A DNA stretch of 64,000 bases. Origin: a virus. The stretch lies in UHGV virus genome UHGV-0371537; one strand, written 5' to 3'. The notes under the pieces are model-generated. The model saw only the letters and a program-made list of their open reading frames with translations, was not told where the DNA came from and did not search any database. Shown one piece after another: positions 20,513 through 54,328 of the stretch. Position numbers and translations under genes: made by a program. The first letter of the stretch is position 1. The number at the start of each line of letters is the position of its first letter.

Positions 20513-20542
20513 CCTTCGCATTCATTGCGGAGGTATTTTCTT

Positions 20543-21337
20543 ATGGCCATTCTAAAACTTGGCAACCGTGGCACTGAAGTGAAGGCACTTCAGGATAGCC
20601 TCAACAAAATCGGCTTCACCCTCGTCGCCGACGGCATCTTTGGTAAGGCAACAGAGAACGCTGTCAAGACTGTTCAGGCGGGTGCGGGGCTTGTCATCGA
20701 CGGTATCGTGGGTCCAAAGACCTCCTATGCTATTCGCAACGCTGGAGACGCCCATCAAGATCACCTGACCGAGGCTGACCTTATCGATGCGGCTAATCAG
20801 CTTGGAGTTGATCTCGCCTCTGTAAAGGCGGTCAACCAGGTGGAATCCCGTGGCACTGGCTTCACCAAGTCAGGTAAGATCAAGACATTGTTCGAACGCC
20901 ACATCATGTACAAGAAGCTCATGGCGAAGTTCGGCCAGGCTCGGGCGAATGCTATAGGGCAGATGTACCCGACGTTGGTCAGTCCTTCTGCAGGTGGGTA
21001 CACGGGCGGCGATGCAGAACTGGATCGACTTCATGCGGCCATCAACATCGACGAGGATTGTGCGTACGAGAGTGCCTCATACGGTCTCTTCCAGATCATG
21101 GGCTTCAACTGCCAGGTCTGTGGGTATGCCAATGCCAAGGAGATGTTCAATGACTTCCTGACAGGCGAACGTGCTCATCTGATGGCATTCGTGAAGTTCA
21201 TCAAGGCCGATGCCAAGCTCTGGCAGGCTCTGAAGGACAAGAACTGGGCTGAGTTTGCGCGGCGCTATAATGGTCCGGCGTATGCCAAGAACCAGTACGA
21301 CACGAAGCTCGCTGCTGCATACAAGAGTTTCAGTTAA
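20543..21337 (+). CDS. endolysin: N-terminal peptidoglycan-binding domain + C-terminal muramidase-like domain
   Basis: N-terminus LKLGNRGTEVKALQDSLNKIGF...DGIFGKATENAV (PG_binding_1-like); C-terminus ...YGLFQIMGFN...FARRYNGPAYAKNQYDTKLAAAY (DUF3380-like). Confidence 0.7.
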   Translation: MAILKLGNRGTEVKALQDSLNKIGFTLVADGIFGKATENAVKTVQAGAGLVIDGIVGPKTSYAIRNAGDAHQDHLTEADLIDAANQLGVDLASVKAVNQVESRGTGFTKSGKIKTLFERHIMYKKLMAKFGQARANAIGQMYPTLVSPSAGGYTGGDAELDRLHAAINIDEDCAYESASYGLFQIMGFNCQVCGYANAKEMFNDFLTGERAHLMAFVKFIKADAKLWQALKDKNWAEFARRYNGPAYAKNQYDTKLAAAYKSFS

Positions 21338-22353: not shown

Positions 22354-23013
22354 ATGAATTATCAAAATATCTATGACTCTCTGATACAAAGAGCCAAGAC
22401 CCGTTCATTGGTTGGTTATTCTGAAACCCACCATATTATCCCTAGATGTATGGGAGGGAAAGATGACAAACATAATCTGGTGGAGTTGACACCAGAAGAA
22501 CATTATTTAGCACATCAATTGTTAGTCAAAATATATCCCAAAAATTTCAAATTAGCATTTGCAGCTAATGCTATGTGCGTAAACAATGAATTCTCCGGTA
22601 GATCTTGTAACAAATTATTCGGTTGGTTGCGGAGAAAACTTTCTCATTCCAATAAACAGATGTACAAAGACAACCCTAATTTGAGGAAAATTCGTTCCGA
22701 TCAAATGAAACAGACACATGTAAAGTATTCTCATTTGCGGGAAATACAGTCTAAACGTTTGAAGGAAAACAATATATGCGTGATAAAACAACCTTGGGAA
22801 AGTAACCATGCCACCAAAGAGTCTTTGGATATATGGAAACGCGCCGACGAATATTATGATTGGTGGTTGTGCAACCAAAAAGGTTGCACGTTCATGGCGA
22901 AAGCGTTTGGGTTCAAAAACAAGACGACTCCGCATTTCACAATGATTAATAAATTTAAATCTGGGTGGAATCCCAAAGCCGACCCAGAGTGGTTAGAGTT
23001 TGTAAGTCAATAA
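22354..23013 (+). CDS. free-standing HNH homing endonuclease
   Basis: HNH core ETHHIIPRCMGGKDDKHNLVELTPEEHYLAH; inserted between phoH and nrdA. Confidence 0.75.
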   Translation: MNYQNIYDSLIQRAKTRSLVGYSETHHIIPRCMGGKDDKHNLVELTPEEHYLAHQLLVKIYPKNFKLAFAANAMCVNNEFSGRSCNKLFGWLRRKLSHSNKQMYKDNPNLRKIRSDQMKQTHVKYSHLREIQSKRLKENNICVIKQPWESNHATKESLDIWKRADEYYDWWLCNQKGCTFMAKAFGFKNKTTPHFTMINKFKSGWNPKADPEWLEFVSQ

Positions 23014-23072: not shown

Positions 23073-25361
23073 ATGAGCGAAATTAACGTCATTAAGCGGG
23101 ACGGATCTTCTGTCCCCTTTGATATTGAGAAACTACACGCAGTCGTAGACCGCGCATGTGACGGCCTGCCTGGTGTATCAATGTCAGAGGTGATCGCTGC
23201 ATCGAAGATTCAGTTCACCGACAACATGAGAACAGATCGCATTCAGGATATCCTCATCCAGGCTGCGGCTTCGCTGATCTCTGTAGACAAACCCAATTAC
23301 CAGTATGTGGCTGCTCGCCTGAAGTCATATGATCTGCGCAAGGCTGTCTATGGCCAGTACAAGCCGCCTCACCTGCTGGATATCTTCGTCAAGAACATCA
23401 AACAGCGTGTGTATGATCGTGAGTTCCTTGATCTCTACACGACCGAAGAGTTCAACGAGCTGAACGATGTTATCAACCACAAACGTGACAAGAACTTCAC
23501 CTGGGCGGCCATGGGTCAGCTGACAGAGAAGTATCTGCTGCGTGACCGTTCCAAGAAGGACAGCAAGATCTTCTATGAAACCCCACAGGTCATGTACATG
23601 GGCATCGCCATGGCGTTGTTCTCCAACTGGGACAAAGACAGCCGCCTGGATATGGTGAAGAAGTTCTATGAATATGCCAGCACAGGCAAGTTCAGTCTTC
23701 CAACCCCGATTATGGCAGGCGTTCGTACTCCTACCCGTCAGTTCAGTTCCTGCGTGTTGATCAAAACTGGTGACACCCTGGACTCTATCAACGCAACAGC
23801 CAAGACCATCGTTGACTATGTGTCCAAACGTGCGGGTATCGGCTTCGACATCGGGGCGATACGTGGGATTGGTAGTCCTATTCGCGGCGGAGAGATGGTT
23901 CACACAGGCCTGATCCCATTCATCAAGTATCTCACTGGGGCGCTCAAGTCTTGCTCCCAGGGCGGCATTCGTGGTGGTGCAGCAACAGCTTATATCCCTC
24001 TGTGGCATTACCAGTTCGATGACGTCGTTGTACTGAAGAATAACCGTGGCACTGAAGAAAACCGCGAACGCCGTATCGACTACGGTATTCAGATCAACCG
24101 CGTGATGTTTGAGCGCCTGGTTGCCAAGCAGCCTCTGTATCTGTTCGACCCGAAAGACAACCGCGAAATGTACGAAGCATACTTCTCCGACGTCGACAAG
24201 TTCCGTACTCTGTATGAGAACATGATCAAGGCCGCCGATGCTGGTCTGGTACGTTCTAAGAAGCTGCAGGCTGAAGAAGTGTTCCAGATGCTGTTAGACC
24301 AGCGTTCAGACACAGGCCGCATCTACATCGCATTTGTCGATCACATGAATGAATACAGCCCATTCAACCTCGACACGATCTACAGCTCCAACCTGTGTCT
24401 TGAAATCGCCCTGCCGACCCGTGAGTTTGAGCAGTACAACGATGAAAACGGGCGCGTGGCTCTGTGCACCCTGGCTTCCTTTAACCTGACGGCGTTCGAA
24501 GACCCGACTGAGATGGAAGACGTGGCGTTTGTGTTGGTGTCTGCGCTGGACATGCTGTTGGAATATCAGGACTATCCGGCAATCCAGGCTCGTAAGGCTG
24601 TTGAGGATTATCGCCCTCTGGGTGTTGGTATCGTGAACGTGGCTCACTTCTTGGCCAAGAACTTCACAGGCTATGGTTCTCCGGCTGGTCTTGAGATGTT
24701 GGATGCGTGGATGGCACACCTGCACTACTATCTGGTCAAGGCATCCAACCGTCTGGCGATGAAGTTCGGTGCATGCAAACGTGGAACCATCCACAATAAT
24801 GGGCAGGTCACTGCCGATCTTCAGCCGCTTCCACTTGATATCCTGCCGAATGGTAAGAAACCGGAAGGCATGGCATACGGCCTGGATTGGGAAGAACTGA
24901 AGGATGATCTGAAGACCTATGGTATCCGCAATGCCACCCTGCTGGCAGTAGCCCCTACCGAAAGCTCCTCACAAGTCCTCAACGCAACGAACGGCATTGA
25001 GCCACCGAAGGGCTTGGTAAGCATTAAGGGCAGCAAGGACGGCACGTACAAGCAGGTCGTTCCGGATGTAGAGACCCTTGGACCGCTGTATGACCTGAAG
25101 TGGGACCTGGAATGCATCGAGTACCTGAAGACCGCTGCTGTCATCCAGCGCTGGGTTGACCAGTCCATCAGTACCAACACATGGTATGACCCAGAGAAGT
25201 ACCCTGACGGCAAGATCCCTCGTGCTAAGATGATGCAGGATATCCTGTCGTTCTATATGTGGGGTGGTAAGACTCTGTATTACAACACGAACAAGGACGC
25301 CAAGGAAGACGAAGAGCTGAAACAGGCTGATGCCGTGGAATGTGAAAGTTGTATCGTGTAG
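23073..25361 (+). CDS. nrdA: ribonucleotide reductase large subunit (class Ia NrdA)
   Basis: N-terminal ATP cone (VIKRDGSSVPFDIEKL), active-site region NLCLEI ... CTLAS, 762 aa. Confidence 0.9.
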   Translation: MSEINVIKRDGSSVPFDIEKLHAVVDRACDGLPGVSMSEVIAASKIQFTDNMRTDRIQDILIQAAASLISVDKPNYQYVAARLKSYDLRKAVYGQYKPPHLLDIFVKNIKQRVYDREFLDLYTTEEFNELNDVINHKRDKNFTWAAMGQLTEKYLLRDRSKKDSKIFYETPQVMYMGIAMALFSNWDKDSRLDMVKKFYEYASTGKFSLPTPIMAGVRTPTRQFSSCVLIKTGDTLDSINATAKTIVDYVSKRAGIGFDIGAIRGIGSPIRGGEMVHTGLIPFIKYLTGALKSCSQGGIRGGAATAYIPLWHYQFDDVVVLKNNRGTEENRERRIDYGIQINRVMFERLVAKQPLYLFDPKDNREMYEAYFSDVDKFRTLYENMIKAADAGLVRSKKLQAEEVFQMLLDQRSDTGRIYIAFVDHMNEYSPFNLDTIYSSNLCLEIALPTREFEQYNDENGRVALCTLASFNLTAFEDPTEMEDVAFVLVSALDMLLEYQDYPAIQARKAVEDYRPLGVGIVNVAHFLAKNFTGYGSPAGLEMLDAWMAHLHYYLVKASNRLAMKFGACKRGTIHNNGQVTADLQPLPLDILPNGKKPEGMAYGLDWEELKDDLKTYGIRNATLLAVAPTESSSQVLNATNGIEPPKGLVSIKGSKDGTYKQVVPDVETLGPLYDLKWDLECIEYLKTAAVIQRWVDQSISTNTWYDPEKYPDGKIPRAKMMQDILSFYMWGGKTLYYNTNKDAKEDEELKQADAVECESCIV

Positions 25362-27342: not shown

Positions 27343-27732
27343 ATGAACTATCCTCTTGACGCGAAATTTATTCTTCCAAGGAAGGAACTAGACACCTTCC
27401 GGGTTCTGCATCAACTTTTGGCCGCCGGGGAAACAATCCCGCTATACGAAGGTGGAAAGAAGGTAGGAAAAGGAATTTCGTGTGCGATCGATGACAGTGA
27501 ATACTGGGCATTTGATTTCAATCGCACCGAGAATTTCAAGCCAAGGGATTCATCAATGATGATGAGGTTCATGATTGACAAACCAATTGACCTACAGAAG
27601 TATGATCTGTTCTTGGACGCGATCCCATACGAATTCAGGGAGGAGGGTCTGAAGTACAGATTTGCGTTGTTGGTGTGCTTCAAAATGACTATCGTCCTGA
27701 AGCCTATGTTCACACCGCCCAACGCAAGTTAA
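27343..27732 (+). CDS. hypothetical protein
   Basis: ORF immediately downstream of the previous gene. Confidence 0.45.
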   Translation: MNYPLDAKFILPRKELDTFRVLHQLLAAGETIPLYEGGKKVGKGISCAIDDSEYWAFDFNRTENFKPRDSSMMMRFMIDKPIDLQKYDLFLDAIPYEFREEGLKYRFALLVCFKMTIVLKPMFTPPNAS

Positions 27733-28113
27733 TCAGTTCGTCCTTTTCAACCACACGGTGTCTGTTATTGGATCTGGGTTGTTGACCACATAGAAAGTGA
27801 TGGTCACGCCCAGAGAGTGGTAATCTTCCGACAGACTGACCGTGACTTCCTCCACCTCGGCTCGTGGTTCATACAGAGCAATAGCATCTTCAACTTTGTT
27901 CTTCACATCTACCTGAATCGTCGGGTTCGTGTTCTCCCCGAGTAGATTGTAAAGCCCCGCTCCGATCCCAGGGTATGTCGGCCAATCTCCAACCGACGAC
28001 ATGACGATATTCCTCACAGATTGTAGGACAGCGTAAATCCCAGATTTCATGGTGACATCTTTGGTCACAGGGTGCATGCCGAACTTCAGATCGACATCTT
28101 TGTATTCTTTCAT
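27733..28113 (-). CDS. baseplate wedge protein, gp25/GPW-like
   Basis: 126 aa, gp25/GPW-like size and pattern; directly downstream of the spike gene on the same strand. Confidence 0.65.
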   Translation of the reverse strand: MKEYKDVDLKFGMHPVTKDVTMKSGIYAVLQSVRNIVMSSVGDWPTYPGIGAGLYNLLGENTNPTIQVDVKNKVEDAIALYEPRAEVEEVTVSLSEDYHSLGVTITFYVVNNPDPITDTVWLKRTN

Positions 28114-28187: not shown

Positions 28188-29798
28188 TTACTCTTCGGTG
28201 CCGAAATTACCACCATTGTCTTTTAATTCTGCCTTGATATCAATCTCACCTGGACCCGTAGGGGATGCAGGGGTTGCACCTGACAGAGAAGAGGCGCGAC
28301 CAGCACCTTCCGCATATTTGATGTTGCCATTAATCGTCTGGGCCACAGTCAGTTTGTCGGCGATGATCTCTGTTGCCAGAATCTTAGGAACCTTCAACGT
28401 CCCGCCGACCTCCAGAGTCTCACAGATAATACGCAAAATATTCTGCGCCTGCAACTCAGCCAGGTTGCTGAATTTCATCAACGCTGTGCCAGCAACAACA
28501 TTAGAATAGTTGTTGGAATGCAAATGATAGACTTCACCAGTCTTGCGCTGCACTTCCGTTCCTTTGATCGTCAGGTTGTGATCGCCGCCAACATAATAAC
28601 GTTTGTTGAACATCGTCAGATCATAATGATCTTTCACAGACTTGTTCACAACGTCACCGTCTGGCAGCATTTGTTTGTACGACCCGGACATGTGCATCCA
28701 GTGAAGACGTTCGCCCCCCGGTGTGTCATCCACTTCCATGATGTGGCCAGCCCGAGAAGCCATGACGTTGTTGTACGGATACTTGGACCCACCCGCAGCC
28801 GGAACCATAGTTTCGCCAGTGTTGTCAATGTCCTGAACACGGCCTGTTGGTGCTGGCGTTGCCTGCTCTTTCGGAGTCCGATCTGGAATTGGTTCTGACC
28901 ATTTACCGTTCTGTTGGGCGGGGGCAGCCGCAGCTGTGTTTGCAGGTCCAGGCCAGCGATAGCCCAAGACCGAAGAACGGCTGAAACGACTGACCTTCAC
29001 TGAATCGGATTGGTTGCCCCCGATACACCAGACATAGTTGGCATCGAACTTCTGCACGAACGCCACATGGCCGAATGTCGGGTTGTTACCGCGCCGGAAG
29101 ACCACGATAGCGCCATACTGAGGTGCCGACAATGGACTACCCCACGTCAGGTAAGATCGGGCAAGAGCGGAGCGTGTGGAAGTGTATCCGGCCTTTAACA
29201 TAACCCAACCAACAAACGCAGCGCACCAGGATACTTCATCTTCAGATGCACCAAGCGAGGTTGTCTTGTGATACTCAACGATGCGGGGGTTGTTGTTGAA
29301 CTTGCCAGCATATTCTTTGACGCCAAGTTCACCACGGGCGATAGTCATCCATTTTTCAGGATCATACCCACCCACAGGAGGCTGAGGGTCTGGCTGAGGT
29401 TCGTCTTCTTGCTTTACAGGTACATCAGTGACAGCATTGTACGCCTGACGTTCAACAGACATGACGACCTGCCCCAGAGCCAGGGGGTTTGTGTCCGCCC
29501 CATCAGTCGGGGTCGCACCCGGCCAGGTCCATGCGATTCTGAGATTCTGGTATGCGTCATCCAGCGCGAACCCCATGACTTCCGTGCCGACAATGATACC
29601 CGTAGGGGACCAACCTAAACCTGCCGAGGAGGCATTCGACGCAGGCATCATCACTTTTGCCCATGGGAGTTTATCCGTAGGCAAGAGGACGGGATCATCT
29701 GTATGTATGCCGTGTATGCGAACGGCCACGCGCCCGTTTTCATCAGGATCATTGACGTCTTCAACGGTGCCATAAAACCATCTCATTTTGTCTAACAT
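28188..29798 (-). CDS. baseplate central spike (gp5-like) with internal cell-wall hydrolase-like domain
   Basis: N-terminal gp5/VgrG-like OB segment (GTVEDVNDPDENGRVAVRIHGIHTDD...LPWA); middle CHAP/NlpC-like region (WCAAFVGW ... GHVAFV); C-terminal repetitive beta-rich tail. Confidence 0.6.
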   Translation of the reverse strand: MLDKMRWFYGTVEDVNDPDENGRVAVRIHGIHTDDPVLLPTDKLPWAKVMMPASNASSAGLGWSPTGIIVGTEVMGFALDDAYQNLRIAWTWPGATPTDGADTNPLALGQVVMSVERQAYNAVTDVPVKQEDEPQPDPQPPVGGYDPEKWMTIARGELGVKEYAGKFNNNPRIVEYHKTTSLGASEDEVSWCAAFVGWVMLKAGYTSTRSALARSYLTWGSPLSAPQYGAIVVFRRGNNPTFGHVAFVQKFDANYVWCIGGNQSDSVKVSRFSRSSVLGYRWPGPANTAAAAPAQQNGKWSEPIPDRTPKEQATPAPTGRVQDIDNTGETMVPAAGGSKYPYNNVMASRAGHIMEVDDTPGGERLHWMHMSGSYKQMLPDGDVVNKSVKDHYDLTMFNKRYYVGGDHNLTIKGTEVQRKTGEVYHLHSNNYSNVVAGTALMKFSNLAELQAQNILRIICETLEVGGTLKVPKILATEIIADKLTVAQTINGNIKYAEGAGRASSLSGATPASPTGPGEIDIKAELKDNGGNFGTEE

Positions 29799-29832
29799 AT
29801 TGAGTTCCGGTTGTCAAACAAGGATTTGAAGG

Positions 29833-29840
29833 TATTTATG
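29833..29840 (-). promoter_or_regulatory. possible late promoter variant (CATAAATA) for spike gene
   Basis: TAAATA core about 34 nt upstream of ATG at 29798. Confidence 0.3.
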
Positions 29841-30136
29841 CGCAGCGGATTTTGCCTTATATACTATAGGAAGCTCTGCTTCCGTTCAGTTATTGTCTTA
29901 TTCGATCTTATTCGCTTCGCTCATCACACCGCCTTATGCAGGCAGCACCATTCCAATGCCATGGAGGCATAAGGGCGAGGCAATAACTGTACACCTCAGA
30001 ACATCCCTTGAAAAATGGTTTTTAATTGACAATCTGATTCAAAATAGACGATCCCCAACAATGACTCAGGAACAAGCCCATTATAACAATTTCAGGTAAA
30101 GAGAGCGCGTGTTAACCTGTTTTGCAGTTAAGCCAA

Positions 30137-30165
30137 TAAAAATCCCGCCGAAGCGGGATTATGGT
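30137..30165 (-). terminator. rho-independent terminator (minus strand)
   Basis: On minus strand AATCCCGC-TTCG-GCGGGATT followed by TTTTATT, downstream of gene 30308..31114. Confidence 0.65.
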
Positions 30166-30307
30166 TTCTTAGACAACCTGACCTTGAGGGCTTCAGTTAA
30201 CAAGTCAAGGTGCCATGGCATCGATTCATTGATTTCAAATATGTTATAGCCGTGTAACTTCAATTCATCACACATCACGAAATAGGATAATAAATCAGTT
30301 TCAAACA

Positions 30308-31114
30308 TTAAATGAAAATTTCATTAATGCTATTGAACTCAATAGGATGCTCTTTACCACATTTAGGGCATTTGATTTTGTTCTTGTAGTGGATGCGAGG
30401 AATTTTATGGAAGAAGTTCTTCGTAATATCCTCGATAACATCCGATTCAAGATTGTCTTTTACCCATTCAATGAAAGCGTCTTTGACACGACGACGCTCA
30501 ATAGATTCTTCGGGCGTGATGCCCGGTTCATCCGGGTTCTCTACACGCCATACTTGTCCATCGTCATCATACAGACAATCAATGAAAGTCGCCAGCATTT
30601 CTTCAATGCTAGATGATTCAGACAGAGCCGTGGCATCGGCAAAGGAGGGCTGGCGCATCTTCAGATGATAACCACCCGGCAGGTCAAAGATTTCTTTAAA
30701 CCCTTCCTTCGCTACACACTTGACATTCAGTAGAGGGATAGGCAGCACCAGTTCCTGCTTACAAGGAACCATGGTTTTCTTCTCGATTCCTTCCCCGACG
30801 TCTGTCGTTTCTTCGATTTGGTTGTTGCATTCATAGCGGATTTTCATCAATTCGCCAATAGCGATGCTACGCATGCGGATGAACACTTCTTCAACAACAC
30901 CGATCGGCAGTTTGTTAAACGGTGCCCCGGCTTCAACACAATCTGCAAACAGGCTTTCCATAATCGCAGCACGCTCTTCAACCGGAGTCTGAGGATCCGC
31001 GACCTGTAGCATGAGAGTTTGTTGCCCGGCAGTGAAAGCGCGATATCTGATGACACTCGGCCAAAAATCGCTTTTGAATGTCTTTTCTGTTCTGGGCAAT
31101 GAAGGTAATTTCAT
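30308..31114 (-). CDS. late protein, possible baseplate hub component (C-terminal zinc ribbon)
   Basis: Start MKLPSLPRTEK after SD; exact TATAAATA about 28 nt upstream; C-terminal CPKCGKEH. Confidence 0.5.
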   Translation of the reverse strand: MKLPSLPRTEKTFKSDFWPSVIRYRAFTAGQQTLMLQVADPQTPVEERAAIMESLFADCVEAGAPFNKLPIGVVEEVFIRMRSIAIGELMKIRYECNNQIEETTDVGEGIEKKTMVPCKQELVLPIPLLNVKCVAKEGFKEIFDLPGGYHLKMRQPSFADATALSESSSIEEMLATFIDCLYDDDGQVWRVENPDEPGITPEESIERRRVKDAFIEWVKDNLESDVIEDITKNFFHKIPRIHYKNKIKCPKCGKEHPIEFNSINEIFI

Positions 31115-31142
31115 AATGTATCTCCATGGTATATTGTAAGGA

Positions 31143-31150
31143 TATTTATA
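31143..31150 (-). promoter_or_regulatory. T4-type late promoter TATAAATA
   Basis: Exact TATAAATA on minus strand upstream of start at 31114. Confidence 0.6.
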
Positions 31151-31163
31151 ACGAGGAATGAAA

Positions 31164-31688
31164 ATGCGCGGATTCTGTTTTAGCGAAATTGGCAAAGAAC
31201 TGTCGATACAATATCCAGACCCCAATACAGACTTCTTTATTTTCTTGTCTGACTATGCCCAGAAAGAGAATATTAGTCACATTGCGATGAAGTACGAAGA
31301 TTATAAATTTTGTCGATTGGGTGTTAAGGATCTCTTGCGCTTCGGACTGTGTGTCATTATCGTAGATCAAACCTATAGCCCCATTGATGATGAAGAAGTC
31401 CTTCCTGTTTTCGTACATCGCAATATCAACACTCTGGATACACATTTTCCTGGGTGTGTGGTCGTTGGTGAGCTGGTTCCTTATTTCCACCGTTTGCGGA
31501 AGTTGGAACAAATTAAAAGTTATTTTCAAGATGGCGTGGGTCAATATAAGATGAACGTCCTCGGTAGTGGATGGAAAGTGTTGTCAACAGCTGGTGGCAC
31601 CGACTATATCAAAATGCGGGTCTATGGTTATGACGTGGACCGCGATTATGAACTGGAGAAAAGTAATGCAAAAAGAAAACGCCGTTGA
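31164..31688 (+). CDS. hypothetical protein
   Basis: ATG 31164 with GAGGAA SD (alternative ATG at 31158). Confidence 0.4.
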   Translation: MRGFCFSEIGKELSIQYPDPNTDFFIFLSDYAQKENISHIAMKYEDYKFCRLGVKDLLRFGLCVIIVDQTYSPIDDEEVLPVFVHRNINTLDTHFPGCVVVGELVPYFHRLRKLEQIKSYFQDGVGQYKMNVLGSGWKVLSTAGGTDYIKMRVYGYDVDRDYELEKSNAKRKRR

Positions 31689-50973: not shown

Positions 50974-52926
50974 TCACCATTCCCAGAGGATTCGACCAGT
51001 GTCTGTCTTATTGGTCGGCTCCAGGCTGTTGCTGTTGAAGTTGTTTGTCGTGCTGACCTTCTTGGATGCATCGACGTTCTGTTGCACAGGCATGACAACG
51101 CTTGCCGGAGGCGGAGCGTATCCACCCTGAACCTGCTCAATGTTGGATAGCGCTCTGCCTTGTGTTGGCATGGCCGCCCCCAGGGAACCCCCGCCGATGG
51201 ACCCATACGCTTCTTTCAACTGCGAGGTGCGATCATCAGTCACATTCTTGTAATCTGAGGACACAACAGATGGCATCGGGGTCAGCGTTTGTGGATCGAT
51301 GTTTGGCTGAGGCGGAATTTGCGGCTGGCTCTCAGCAGGTGTGTTCGGTGAAGGATTTTCATCCACACCAATCTGCATCGACTTGCGCGCTTCATCCATC
51401 TTCTGCTTCGCCGCCTGGCCGCCGAGAGCGTCTGGAATAATACCGACAAACTTGTCCACTATGTCAAACATGGCGTTTGTGATAGCATTCAGCATATTGA
51501 AGAACGGTTTCTTCACGTTCTCGGCGAATCCTTTTTTGATATCATCAATCACTTTGTTGGCGACACCGATACCTTCGTCAACAAAAGAACTGATACCTCC
51601 AGATATCCAATCCACGAGTTTCATCAGTTCTGATTGAAGATTGTCCGCCAGTTTACCAGGAATATCCGTGAGCGACGTATTCCTGGTAATACCCGCAAAG
51701 AGATCGTTACTAATCCAGTCTACAATACCATTCAGCCAGCGAGCGGGAGCCTCAGTAAGCATGAGAGTGTATTTCCGCAGGGTTTCTCCAGCCTCTGTGT
51801 CGAAGCCAAAGATCTTGGACACCCAATCAAATAGGTCACCAAATCCGCCCACCAGTTCTGATATCCCAGCCCGGACGCGGTCAACTATGGTCACAGCACC
51901 CTTACCCAAGATCTCTTTAGCATTGATGAACCCTTTGCCGAAGTCCCAGATCATAGAGAGTAGAGCTAATGGACCAACTTTCAGGAATTTGAACACCTTC
52001 CCAAATGGACCCAGCAGTTTGGTGATACCTTCTCCCAGCTTGCCAAACATGCCGAAGAACACTCCGAGAACTTTGCCGATAGCCGAGAATGGCTTTAGCA
52101 GAAATCCTTTCAGAGCGTTCAGGCCGAGCATTGCGGCCACTGCCGCGCCAATCCCGGAAGAATCATCTTTCTGGTCATCATCTTTCGGGATGACGGATCC
52201 AGCCTGTGGATGCCCGCCAATCTCTTTATCTGTTTCACCCCGGCGCATTTCTTCTTTTTCTCGTGACTTCTCATCACCTTCAAAAATGCGAGTCAGAGCG
52301 CTAACGATGTGACCGCCGACGCGACCGATTTTACTCTCAATGCTGGATAAGCGGACGAGACTCTCTTCAGAATTCTTCTTGACATCGGCAGTGTCATCTC
52401 GTATCTCTATGAGTACGCCGTCCATCATATTCAAGAATGAACCCACACGTACCAAAGACAACCCCTGTTCATCCATACGCTTCAAAGAATCGTCATTCGC
52501 CGACTTGAGCTGGTCTGAAATCAGGTTCAGGTATTCCAGAGACGTGTCATCCGTAGGCATGCGTGTGATATCACCCAGGCGATCAATCTTGCCTGCAATG
52601 TTCTCCAGTTCGCGATTACCTTCGGCACTGAGGTCTGTGGTGTCTTTCATCCACACACCGAAGTCCCTGGTGAAGATAGGAGACATGCGCGAGAAACCCG
52701 ACACAATCTCAGCGACAGTCGGGATACGGATCTCAAACGGTTTTTCAGCCGCTTTCTTATCCTGTTTGGAGGCCGACTCCAGCTTGGAGAGATTCTTGTT
52801 CATCCTCTCCAGTTGTTTGTTGGTCTCGTTCTGAGCACGGAGTTGCTTGCGCTGCATCATCTCCGTTTTGATTTTGTCCAGAACTTTGACCACATCGGCC
52901 TGTGAGTTCTCTGCCGGATCTGCCAT
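50974..52926 (-). CDS. tail tape-measure/baseplate hub protein (gp29-like)
   Basis: 650 aa, coiled-coil-rich with Gly-rich hydrophobic segment (GIGAAVAAMLGLNALKG...FGMFGKLGEG); in baseplate operon. Confidence 0.5.
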   Translation of the reverse strand: MADPAENSQADVVKVLDKIKTEMMQRKQLRAQNETNKQLERMNKNLSKLESASKQDKKAAEKPFEIRIPTVAEIVSGFSRMSPIFTRDFGVWMKDTTDLSAEGNRELENIAGKIDRLGDITRMPTDDTSLEYLNLISDQLKSANDDSLKRMDEQGLSLVRVGSFLNMMDGVLIEIRDDTADVKKNSEESLVRLSSIESKIGRVGGHIVSALTRIFEGDEKSREKEEMRRGETDKEIGGHPQAGSVIPKDDDQKDDSSGIGAAVAAMLGLNALKGFLLKPFSAIGKVLGVFFGMFGKLGEGITKLLGPFGKVFKFLKVGPLALLSMIWDFGKGFINAKEILGKGAVTIVDRVRAGISELVGGFGDLFDWVSKIFGFDTEAGETLRKYTLMLTEAPARWLNGIVDWISNDLFAGITRNTSLTDIPGKLADNLQSELMKLVDWISGGISSFVDEGIGVANKVIDDIKKGFAENVKKPFFNMLNAITNAMFDIVDKFVGIIPDALGGQAAKQKMDEARKSMQIGVDENPSPNTPAESQPQIPPQPNIDPQTLTPMPSVVSSDYKNVTDDRTSQLKEAYGSIGGGSLGAAMPTQGRALSNIEQVQGGYAPPPASVVMPVQQNVDASKKVSTTNNFNSNSLEPTNKTDTGRILWEW

Positions 52927-52939
52927 GATTCACCTCATA

Positions 52940-54328
52940 TTAAACTTTCTGAGACTGCCCTTTTTCAATCGGCTTGGGAGTCGTTGTTGAAGCGGTGGTC
53001 TGATTTGTTTGTGGTGGTAGCACCTGCTCCAACATACTGTCTTTGGCGATTTCAGCGATGCACTGATAATCTTTGGTCAGTCTAGATATCTTGTGACGAA
53101 CCTTGGTCACGATATAATGACCTGTCGATAGCTTACTTAACTCTGCCAGGTTTTCATTCTTCTTGGGGCGATTAGACTGGTCTTCGATATAGAATACACG
53201 ACCAACATTCAGGCGGTTGTCTCCCACTAACAACAGACGCATCGCAGTACTGCCAAGGCTGAAGTTTATCACCCGGCGCGCATAATCAATCTGCTCTGCG
53301 CCGTCCGGTTGGGCTTCAATATAACGAACGTTTTGGCGATCAAATTCGTCAGAGAACATTGGATATGGGTCCAGGTGGGCTGTCTCTGCAAACCACTCAG
53401 TGTAGATGCGCTGTGTCGGCGTTACTGTCTTGGTCTCAAAATCATAGACGCGTTCGTTTACCGCCAAGATGTCGCGGTAGTTGGCCATGTACTGGTCACG
53501 CGCCAGCTTCTTCTCTGCCTTGATGATCGTGCGCATGAAGCGCTCAGAGTTGAAGTTGTTATCCTGCATGAGTGGGGCGTCTTGAGGATCACGGAATAAT
53601 TTGTTCTGTTGAGCCAGCTCTTGCTTCTCTTCGGCCGTCAATGACTGGCTGCCCTGATTGAACAGAGTGGTCAGGCTCTTGAAGTGGTAGCCGTTGAAGT
53701 CTTCATAGAACACAAATGGCATGAACAACTCATCATAGGAACGGCTGGCCATGTAGTCGATAGAACGTAGCACAGGCCAGAGAGGGGTTGCGAATCTCTC
53801 TTGAATACCATATGTTGGGTCTATGTCTTCGAACTTCGTGCGCGACTCCAGCTGATTGAAGATGGTGAGCGCCATCTCGGAGTAGGAACCACTCAGCCCA
53901 ATAGAACAACGGATCATGCTGTCCTTGTAGGCATCAGTTGTCACGAGGTGAAGCCAGAATGCCTTCTTGGACGAACTGTTGGATTCATCGGCCACGCGCC
54001 CTACCCGGCTGACTCGCAGGGAGAGAGTAGTGTACTCGGAAGCTGCTGGGCTCTTGAACGACACCACAACTTCTTCCCCACCCAGGATAGGCATTGTGTC
54101 CAGGATATCCCAACCTTCTTTGATCAGAATGTTGGCTGTCAGAGAAGGAGAGGCCTGACCCTCAAGACCCAGATCCTGGAAGACGTTGAATTCTTCAAAC
54201 AGCGCCGTCAGGTCATACGGCGTGGGTGTGCCGCCCTGTGGGGTGTGAGGAAGGATCGCCATGTACTTCAGGTCAAATGTTGTCGACGGTGTTACGATAC
54301 CGTCTTGGGTCTCTCTGTTTTCGATCAT
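52940..54328 (-). CDS. baseplate hub protein (gp27-like), putative
   Basis: 462 aa late-strand gene between gp28-like and gp29-like ORFs; weak resemblance. Confidence 0.4.
   Translation of the reverse strand: MIENRETQDGIVTPSTTFDLKYMAILPHTPQGGTPTPYDLTALFEEFNVFQDLGLEGQASPSLTANILIKEGWDILDTMPILGGEEVVVSFKSPAASEYTTLSLRVSRVGRVADESNSSSKKAFWLHLVTTDAYKDSMIRCSIGLSGSYSEMALTIFNQLESRTKFEDIDPTYGIQERFATPLWPVLRSIDYMASRSYDELFMPFVFYEDFNGYHFKSLTTLFNQGSQSLTAEEKQELAQQNKLFRDPQDAPLMQDNNFNSERFMRTIIKAEKKLARDQYMANYRDILAVNERVYDFETKTVTPTQRIYTEWFAETAHLDPYPMFSDEFDRQNVRYIEAQPDGAEQIDYARRVINFSLGSTAMRLLLVGDNRLNVGRVFYIEDQSNRPKKNENLAELSKLSTGHYIVTKVRHKISRLTKDYQCIAEIAKDSMLEQVLPPQTNQTTASTTTPKPIEKGQSQKV

What the first reader, a model, noticed from the sequence alone, without database searches (positions are those of the whole stretch)
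28188..29798. Baseplate central spike with CHAP/NlpC-like hydrolase module instead of a T4-type lysozyme domain
The protein has a gp5/VgrG-like N-terminal OB segment (GTVEDVNDPDENGRVAVRIHGIHTDD) and a repetitive C-terminal tail. The central enzymatic domain shows a Cys/His arrangement (WCAAFVGW ... GHVAFV) typical of CHAP or NlpC/P60 peptidoglycan peptidases rather than a lysozyme fold. This implies a different cell-wall bond is cut during injection.
Basis: partly seen in the sequence, partly recalled or inferred. Interest (0 to 1): 0.45.

Follow-up and report, generated by a model that had tools for sequence, protein, structure and literature searches.

The report
Phage tail spike carrying cysteine peptidase

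Summary
ORF 28188..29798 (minus strand, 536 aa) is the gp5-type baseplate central spike of a ViI-like phage. It is 96-97% identical in protein to the Limestonevirus and Agtrevirus orthologs. It has three modules: a Gp5 OB domain (aa 1-110), a TIGR02594/CHAP papain-like cysteine peptidase (aa 149-284) and a region homologous to the T4 gp5C beta-helix (aa 337-536). P/A/Q-rich linkers flank the enzyme. No lysozyme signal was found by HMM or by fold search. The domain model (pLDDT 95.6) matches only NlpC/P60 and CHAP peptidases. Cys192, His244 and Asn262 are invariant in 46 diverse homologs and in the spike orthologs. An experimentally lytic Proteus phage endolysin, LysPM2, belongs to the same family, and its proposed triad aligns residue for residue. 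The phage's own endolysin is an unrelated muramidase. The C-terminus is not overtly repetitive. The bond that is cut cannot be told from sequence or fold. The finding is not new: a 2011 paper on phage PhiSH19 lists the ortholog as "Gp5 OB family & CHAP domain", and 282 phage records carry the full-length protein. What remains untested is the enzyme's activity and specificity in the spike. Interest is low.

The parts
28188..29798 (-). gp5-type baseplate central spike gene, 536 aa plus stop codon
   Evidence: ORF listing. [quoted passage not shown] 96-97% aa identity to the LIMEstone1 and EspM4VN orthologs. LIMEstone1 ORF061 is annotated 'confirmed structural protein'.
29469..29798 (-). N-terminal OB domain (aa 1-110), the part that in T4 docks onto the gp27 hub
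   Evidence: Pfam Gp5_OB E=5e-13 and a weak Phage_base_V match. phmmer to T4 gp5 structures 1k28/1pdl covers aa 4-94, and a T4-like central spike (9f4a) covers aa 2-82. Invariant columns are shared with RB18 gp5.
29355..29468 (-). Linker 1 (aa 111-148), rich in Pro/Gln/Glu
   Evidence: Composition analysis. The region is conserved among orthologs, with dN/dS 0.011.
28947..29354 (-). TIGR02594 / CHAP / NlpC-P60-like cysteine peptidase module (aa 149-284)
   Evidence: TIGR02594 E=1.5e-38 over the full model and CHAP E=1.6e-10. The AF2 model has pLDDT 95.6. Fold matches are only to NlpC/P60 and CHAP structures. 37% identity to the experimentally lytic endolysin LysPM2.
29223..29225 (-). Codon for Cys192, the predicted catalytic nucleophile
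   Evidence: Invariant in alignment A1 and in all spike orthologs. Aligns with LysPM2 C47, which that paper predicts as catalytic. Coordinates verified.
29067..29069 (-). Codon for His244, the predicted general base
   Evidence: Invariant. Aligns with LysPM2 H96. Coordinates verified.
29013..29015 (-). Codon for Asn262 in the invariant GGNQ motif, the predicted third triad residue
   Evidence: Invariant and conserved even in OLIVR5, where Gln263 is not. Aligns with LysPM2 N115. Coordinates verified.
28791..28946 (-). Linker 2 (aa 285-336), rich in Pro/Ala/Thr/Gln; occupies the position of the T4 gp5 linker that holds the S351/A352 maturation cleavage site
   Evidence: Composition is 67% P/A/Q/E/T/G. 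T4-type S351 aligns near residue 288, NTAAAA, but alignment through low-complexity sequence is unreliable. Cleavage is not shown.
28191..28790 (-). gp5C-homologous C-terminal region (aa 337-536), the presumed trimeric beta-helical needle
   Evidence: phmmer to T4 gp5 aligns aa 338-440 with T4 385-487. The alignment with RB18 gp5 is colinear to the C-terminus. Periodicity is only weak. The fold was not predicted: the full-length single-sequence model failed with pLDDT 32.
29833..29840 (-). CATAAATA, a T4-late-promoter-like element 34 nt upstream of the ATG
   Evidence: Read directly from the sequence. LIMEstone1 has a late-promoter -10 signal annotated at the equivalent place. The first 100 nt upstream of the gene (29797-29895) are 99% identical to LIMEstone1 against a background of about 83%. 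Promoter function is inferred.
27733..28113 (-). gp25-type baseplate wedge gene immediately downstream (context)
   Evidence: Pfam GPW_gp25 E=5e-9. PHROG 261/43 baseplate wedge subunit.
30308..31225 (-). gp26-type baseplate hub gene upstream (context)
   Evidence: Pfam T4_baseplate E=1.8e-43. PHROG 150 baseplate hub.
20525..21337 (+). The phage's own endolysin (PG_binding_1 + N-acetylmuramidase), not part of the spike and unrelated to the spike enzyme
   Evidence: Pfam Muramidase PF11860 E=2e-59 and PG_binding_1 E=1.4e-14. PHROG endolysin families.

Best explanation
This is the central spike (gp5 ortholog) of the contractile-tail baseplate of a ViI-like phage (Ackermannviridae, Aglimvirinae-like). 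The protein is modular. An N-terminal OB domain seats it on the baseplate hub. A C-terminal region homologous to T4 gp5C forms the trimeric needle. Between them, on flexible Pro/Ala/Gln-rich linkers, sits a TIGR02594-family papain-like cysteine peptidase with predicted triad Cys192-His244-Asn262. It occupies the place where T4 has a GH24 lysozyme. When the sheath contracts, the needle is driven through the outer membrane and carries three copies of the enzyme into the periplasm. There they locally cleave peptide or amide bonds of the peptidoglycan stem peptides, opening a hole for the tail tube. The most likely activity is an endopeptidase acting within the stem, for example gamma-D-Glu-meso-DAP, as in the closest structural neighbours. 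Shown here: the domain identities, the fold, conservation of the catalytic residues, purifying selection, the baseplate gene context, and family membership shared with an experimentally lytic endolysin. Inferred: trimer assembly, delivery to the periplasm, catalytic activity of this particular protein, bond specificity, and any T4-like proteolytic maturation in linker 2. The module was probably exchanged with phage endolysin genes, in which the same family is common.
Confidence: 0.85

Rival explanations
1. The architecture and role are the same, but the enzyme is an N-acetylmuramoyl-L-alanine amidase that strips stem peptides from the glycan, rather than an endopeptidase cutting inside the stem peptide.
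Confidence: 0.25
2. The peptidase module is dispensable or mainly structural in the spike. Penetration is mechanical, and the enzyme matters only under special conditions such as stationary-phase or highly cross-linked walls, or not at all.
For: A review notes that virion-associated lysins are often non-essential in laboratory conditions and help mainly with thick or highly cross-linked peptidoglycan. Some contractile phages lack enzymatic domains altogether, according to the abstract of PMC11948020.
Against: The catalytic residues are invariant, and dN/dS is 0.011 across saturated synonymous divergence. The module is retained in four Ackermannviridae genera and in Pootjesviridae.
Confidence: 0.1
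3. The cysteine peptidase acts on a periplasmic amide bond other than the canonical stem-peptide bonds. Examples are the Braun lipoprotein-mDAP link, 3-3 cross-links, or a non-murein substrate such as glutathionylspermidine-type amides.
For: The CHAP superfamily includes the Gsp amidase, which appears among weaker fold hits. A T6SS paper labelled a TIGR02594 effector by that similarity. The family's specificity has never been mapped.
Against: Family members are fused to PG_binding_1, SH3 and LysM domains. They sit in holin-spanin lysis cassettes. LysPM2 lyses cells. All of this points to bulk murein as the substrate.
Confidence: 0.05
4. The ORF is the phage's endolysin, or a lysis protein mislabelled as a spike.
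For: Standalone TIGR02594 proteins are endolysins, and annotation in this family is demonstrably muddled.
Against: The protein has a Gp5 OB domain and a gp5C region. It lies between gp25 and gp26 baseplate genes behind a late-promoter-like element. The ortholog is annotated as a virion protein. The phage has a separate muramidase endolysin at 20525..21337.
Confidence: 0.02

Closest known systems
gp5 orthologs of ViI-like phages (Ackermannviridae: Limestonevirus LIMEstone1 ORF061, Agtrevirus EspM4VN/Ag3, Kuttervirus PhiSH19/SS9, Taipeivirus-like Klebsiella phages)
   Same: The three-module architecture and the length (536-541 aa) are identical. Amino-acid identity is 85-97%. The gp25 and gp26 neighbours are the same. 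The catalytic Cys/His/Asn are the same. PhiSH19's ortholog was described in 2011 as 'Gp5 OB family & CHAP domain'.
   Different: Only sequence-level divergence: the gene is 86% identical in nucleotides to LIMEstone1, and this 3.6-kb region is 86% identical to the best phage record. There is no architectural difference.
Bacteriophage T4 gp5 (PDB 1k28, 1pdl, 5iv5)
   Same: The N-terminal OB domain and the C-terminal gp5C region are homologous and colinear. An enzyme module is inserted between them on linkers. Overall length is similar, 536 against 575 aa.
   Different: T4 carries a GH24 lysozyme that is a paralog of its own endolysin. Here the module is a TIGR02594 cysteine peptidase unrelated to the phage's muramidase endolysin. 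The 8-residue beta-helix repeat is strong in T4-type gp5 and nearly erased here. The gene sits next to gp25/gp26 rather than gp53/gp5.1.
LysPM2, endolysin of Proteus phage PM-CJR (TIGR02594 family; PMC13461873)
   Same: It belongs to the same enzyme family (TIGR02594 E=3.4e-37). It is 37% identical over 137 aa, and its proposed triad C47/H96/N115 aligns with C192/H244/N262. It was shown by experiment to lyse outer-membrane-permeabilised Gram-negative cells.
   Different: It is a standalone 158-aa lysis-cassette protein acting from within at the end of infection, not a virion-borne module acting from without at entry.
Agrobacterium phage OLIVR5 gp214 (Pootjesviridae)
   Same: Gp5_OB plus TIGR02594 in one protein, 38-40% identical, with Cys/His/Asn conserved.
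   Different: It is only 304 aa and has no gp5C region. The needle, if there is one, must be a separate protein.
Hub-fused NlpC/P60 or CHAP peptidases of Gram-positive-targeting contractile machines (diffocin Hub-Hydrolase CD1368, PDB 8v3w; phage phi812 hub protein, PDB 9euf/9eum)
   Different: The fusion partner there is labelled a hub protein, not a gp5-type OB/beta-helix spike. The targets are Gram-positive walls. There is no detectable sequence relationship (best PDB sequence match E=0.2).
T6SS peptidoglycan amidase effectors (Tae1/Tse1, Tae2, Tae3, Tae4) and VgrG-associated TIGR02594 effectors of Stenotrophomonas
   Different: Those are separate cargo proteins paired with immunity proteins, and they are used to kill rather than to open a local entry port.

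Membership tests
T4 gp5-type baseplate central spike | N-terminal gp5/VgrG-type OB domain | tested here: met
   Pfam Gp5_OB E=5e-13 at 49.9 bits against a cutoff of 25. phmmer to T4 gp5 covers aa 4-94.
T4 gp5-type baseplate central spike | C-terminal gp5C triple-stranded beta-helix | tested here: inconclusive
   Sequence homology to T4 gp5 385-487 is clear (per-stretch E about 1e-13), and the alignment is colinear to the end. The octapeptide periodicity is weak, and no usable structure model was obtained.
T4 gp5-type baseplate central spike | Central GH24 (T4-type) lysozyme domain | tested here: not met
   No lysozyme family at E<=0.1. T4 gp5 structures do not match aa 95-337. Fold searches return only cysteine peptidases.
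T4 gp5-type baseplate central spike | Encoded among baseplate genes and expressed late | tested here: met
   Flanked by gp25 and gp26 homologs. CATAAATA lies 34 nt upstream, where LIMEstone1 has an annotated late promoter. Expression timing itself is inferred.
T4 gp5-type baseplate central spike | Physical component of the virion, trimeric, bound to a gp27-type hub | not testable with these tools
   The LIMEstone1 ortholog is annotated 'confirmed structural protein'. The gp27 partner was not recognised in the window.
TIGR02594 (CHAP / NlpC-P60 superfamily, Pfam clan Peptidase_CA) | Full-length match above the curated cutoff | tested here: met
   132.1 bits against a cutoff of 70.55, covering model positions 2-132 of 132.
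TIGR02594 (CHAP / NlpC-P60 superfamily, Pfam clan Peptidase_CA) | Conserved catalytic Cys and His, plus a polar third residue | tested here: met
   C192, H244 and G260-G261-N262-Q263 are invariant in 46 sequences, conserved in the spike orthologs, and aligned with the LysPM2 triad.
TIGR02594 (CHAP / NlpC-P60 superfamily, Pfam clan Peptidase_CA) | Papain-like alpha+beta fold, with the Cys-bearing helix packed on a beta-sheet | tested here: met
TIGR02594 (CHAP / NlpC-P60 superfamily, Pfam clan Peptidase_CA) | Peptidoglycan-degrading activity and a defined bond specificity | not testable with these tools
   Family member LysPM2 is lytic in vitro. No cleavage-site mapping was found for any member.

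The most novel reading that the evidence does not exclude
The swap from lysozyme to cysteine peptidase is adaptive, and the spike enzyme has an unusual specificity. It might cut a bond that bypasses glycan modifications or periplasmic lysozyme inhibitors of Enterobacterales, or it might cut the lipoprotein-murein tether. In that case ViI-like phages would open the wall by a chemistry not yet described for any Gram-negative phage virion enzyme. No cleavage site has been mapped for any TIGR02594 protein in the literature searched, so this is not excluded.
Probability: 0.08. Interest if true: 0.5.

Novelty: already known. Interest (0 to 1): 0.2.

Why it matters
The finding matters little as a discovery. 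The architecture is conserved across Ackermannviridae, with 282 phage records carrying the full-length protein, and it has been listed in the literature since 2011. It has modest value in three ways. First, a review states that peptidase-type virion lysins are found almost exclusively in phages of Gram-positive bacteria, so this large family of Enterobacterales phages is a clear and under-noticed exception. Second, the spike enzyme has never been tested biochemically, and no solved structure of a TIGR02594 protein was detected in the PDB. Third, the routine label 'tail lysozyme' is chemically wrong for these proteins. It has also spread by annotation transfer onto true endolysins (Kopi gp29, ICP1 gp207), which misleads users of those records.

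Tried and rejected
1. Full-length single-sequence AlphaFold2 gave pLDDT 32.5 and was unusable. This used one of the two structure jobs, so the fold of aa 337-536 and the trimer could not be modelled.
2. A PDB profile search with the TIGR02594 alignment found no relative by sequence; the best E-value was 0.2.
3. The gp27-type hub partner was sought among the nearby baseplate ORFs 52940..54328 and 50974..52926. Pfam and PDB sequence searches found nothing.
4. A crude regex scan for a PAAR/gp5.4 tip protein found nothing credible. This does not exclude one, because only 64 kb of the genome is in view and the scan was not HMM-based.
5. Tandem Repeats Finder on the gene found only a trivial 19-nt match.
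6. Literature searches found no structural or biochemical work on the ViI-like central spike. The 2024 Ackermannviridae review does not mention the protein.
7. I considered that the ORF could be an endolysin. I rejected this on domain architecture, gene context and the presence of a separate muramidase endolysin.
8. I considered a T4-like maturation cleavage. The T4 S351/A352 position aligns to NTAAAA at about residue 288, but alignment through low-complexity linkers is not evidence, so this is left as speculation.

Full report
OBSERVATION. The quoted motifs are at aa 10-35 (GTVEDVNDPDENGRVAVRIHGIHTDD), 191-198 (WCAAFVGW) and 243-248 (GHVAFV). Pfam gives Gp5_OB (aa 39-97, E=5e-13) and CHAP (aa 187-262, E=1.6e-10), and no lysozyme family at E<=0.1. 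NCBIfam gives a full-length TIGR02594 match (aa 150-282, E=1.5e-38, 132 bits against a cutoff of 70.55). [quoted passage not shown] The flanking genes on the same strand are a gp25-type wedge gene (27733..28113) and a gp26-type hub gene (30308..31225).

WHAT THE WINDOW IS. The 3.6-kb region is 84-86% identical in DNA to ViI-like phages (Ackermannviridae): Enterobacter phage EspM4VN, Dickeya phage LIMEstone1 and relatives, and Shigella phage Ag3. By tblastn, 282 phage records carry at least 80% of the protein. Identities are 97% to Dickeya phage phiD3 and about 85% to Kuttervirus and Klebsiella ViI-like phages. Direct alignment gives 96-97% to LIMEstone1 and EspM4VN, 85% to SS9 and a Klebsiella phage, 40% to Agrobacterium phage OLIVR5 gp214, and 26% to T4-type gp5 from RB18. 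In LIMEstone1 the ortholog (ORF061) is annotated 'confirmed structural protein' and has a late-promoter -10 signal upstream. Here a CATAAATA element lies 34 nt upstream of the ATG.

ANATOMY. The protein has five segments: OB domain (aa 1-110), Pro/Gln/Glu-rich linker (111-148), TIGR02594 module (149-284), Pro/Ala/Thr/Gln-rich linker (285-336) and gp5C-homologous region (337-536). Solved T4 gp5 structures (1k28, 1pdl and others) match only aa 2-94 and 338-440. Nothing in the PDB matches the middle by sequence. The multiple alignment shows that the OB and C-terminal regions are colinear with T4-type gp5 to the very end, while the central module is cleanly replaced.

T4-type gp5 has strong 8-residue periodicity (z = 6-8 at offsets 8, 16, 24 and 32). 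This protein shows z about 3 at offset 32 and nothing at offset 8. No meaningful DNA tandem repeat is present.

THE ENZYME MODULE. A search with aa 143-287 found 1305 homologs. Most are small standalone proteins of 135-225 aa, up to 59% identical, and often fused to PG_binding_1, SH3 or LysM domains. In an alignment of 46 of them, Cys192, His244 and G260-G261-N262-Q263 are invariant in full-length numbering. The same Cys/His/Asn are present in spike orthologs from four Ackermannviridae lineages and in OLIVR5.

FUNCTIONAL ANCHOR. LysPM2 of Proteus phage PM-CJR was reported in 2026 as the first experimentally characterised single-CHAP endolysin of a Gram-negative phage. It lyses outer-membrane-permeabilised Proteus cells, and its predicted triad is C47/H96/N115 (PMC13461873). 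I fetched its gene. It is a full-length TIGR02594 member (E=3.4e-37) and is 37% identical to aa 149-283 of the spike. C47, H96 and N115 align to C192, H244 and N262.

In Pseudomonas phage Kopi the family member lies between the holin and the Rz-like spanin. In ICP1 it is PG_binding_1 plus TIGR02594. [quoted passage not shown] The closest standalone metagenomic homologs sit on phage-like contigs just after tail genes. TIGR02594 domains are also reported in effectors encoded next to vgrG genes in Stenotrophomonas T6SS clusters. The family is therefore a general-purpose murein peptidase module used by endolysins, T6SS effectors and this spike.

SELECTION. Against LIMEstone1 the gene is 86% identical in nucleotides but 96% in protein. 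dN/dS is 0.02 overall and 0.011 for the enzyme module, with dS about 0.9. The module is being maintained and is not decaying.

CONTRAST WITH T4. By established knowledge, in T4 the spike lysozyme is a paralog of the endolysin. Here the phage's endolysin (20525..21337) is PG_binding_1 plus an N-acetylmuramidase (PF11860), so entry and exit use different chemistries.

MECHANISM (inferred). Three copies of the protein form the needle through the C-terminal region and sit on the hub through the OB domains. Sheath contraction drives the needle through the outer membrane. The tethered peptidases then cut stem-peptide bonds locally so that the tube can pass. The exact bond is unknown. The fold neighbours favour a DL-endopeptidase acting at gamma-D-Glu-mDAP. 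The Pfam CHAP assignment and the 18-residue His-Asn spacing keep an amidase in play. Whether linker 2 is cleaved as in T4 (S351/A352) is untested. The T4 site aligns near NTAAAA at residue 288, but that alignment runs through low-complexity sequence.

NOVELTY. Hooton et al. [quoted passage not shown] The architecture is therefore already on record, and this protein is a 96-97% identical ortholog.

I found no biochemical or structural study of it, and the 2024 family review does not mention it. One review states that endopeptidase-type virion lysins occur almost exclusively in phages of Gram-positive bacteria. These phages are an under-noticed exception to that statement.

VERDICT. The finding is ordinary for this phage family and already known at the annotation level. 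Open points are the enzyme's bond specificity, the structure of the C-terminal needle, the tip and hub partners, and any maturation cleavage.

Noticed in passing
window 27497-27796, 28197-28296, 29797-29995, 30095-30394: Nucleotide identity to LIMEstone1 is mosaic. The background is about 80-85%, but these patches reach 93-99%. The last 86 codons of gp5 have dS 0.27 against about 1 elsewhere. The 29797-29995 patch covers the gp5 upstream and late-promoter region. These could be embedded regulatory signals or recent recombination patches.
   Followed up: partly
L006:2983-3528 (Pseudomonas phage Kopi gp29); L005:2752-3468 (Vibrio phage ICP1 gp207): [quoted passage not shown] Kopi gp29 (181 aa, TIGR02594) lies between holin and spanin. 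ICP1 gp207 (238 aa) is PG_binding_1 plus TIGR02594. Both look like endolysins mislabelled by annotation transfer from ViI-like gp5.
   Followed up: yes
window 22354-23013 (+) and nrdA 23073-25361 (+): A 219-aa ORF with a weak HNH-endonuclease hit sits between phoH and nrdA. LIMEstone1 has no gene there, but its nrdA is 3303 nt against 2289 nt here. The two phages appear to carry different mobile-element or intein loads around the nrd genes.
   Followed up: no
window 50974-52926 (-) and 52940-54328 (-): Two large ORFs lie next to the gp53- and gp48-type baseplate genes: 650 aa (phrog_3799, unknown function) and 462 aa (phrog_350, 'tail protein'). Neither has a Pfam or PDB sequence match. They are candidates for the unrecognised gp27-type hub or other inner-baseplate parts.
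   Followed up: partly
window 20525-21337 (+): The phage's endolysin is PG_binding_1 plus N-acetylmuramidase (PF11860), unrelated to the spike enzyme. Unlike T4, this phage uses different enzyme families for entry and exit.
   Followed up: yes
L004:2465-3379 (Agrobacterium phage OLIVR5 gp214): This is a 304-aa 'short spike' made of Gp5_OB plus TIGR02594 with no gp5C region. The same enzyme-on-OB fusion therefore exists in Pootjesviridae without a built-in needle.
   Followed up: partly
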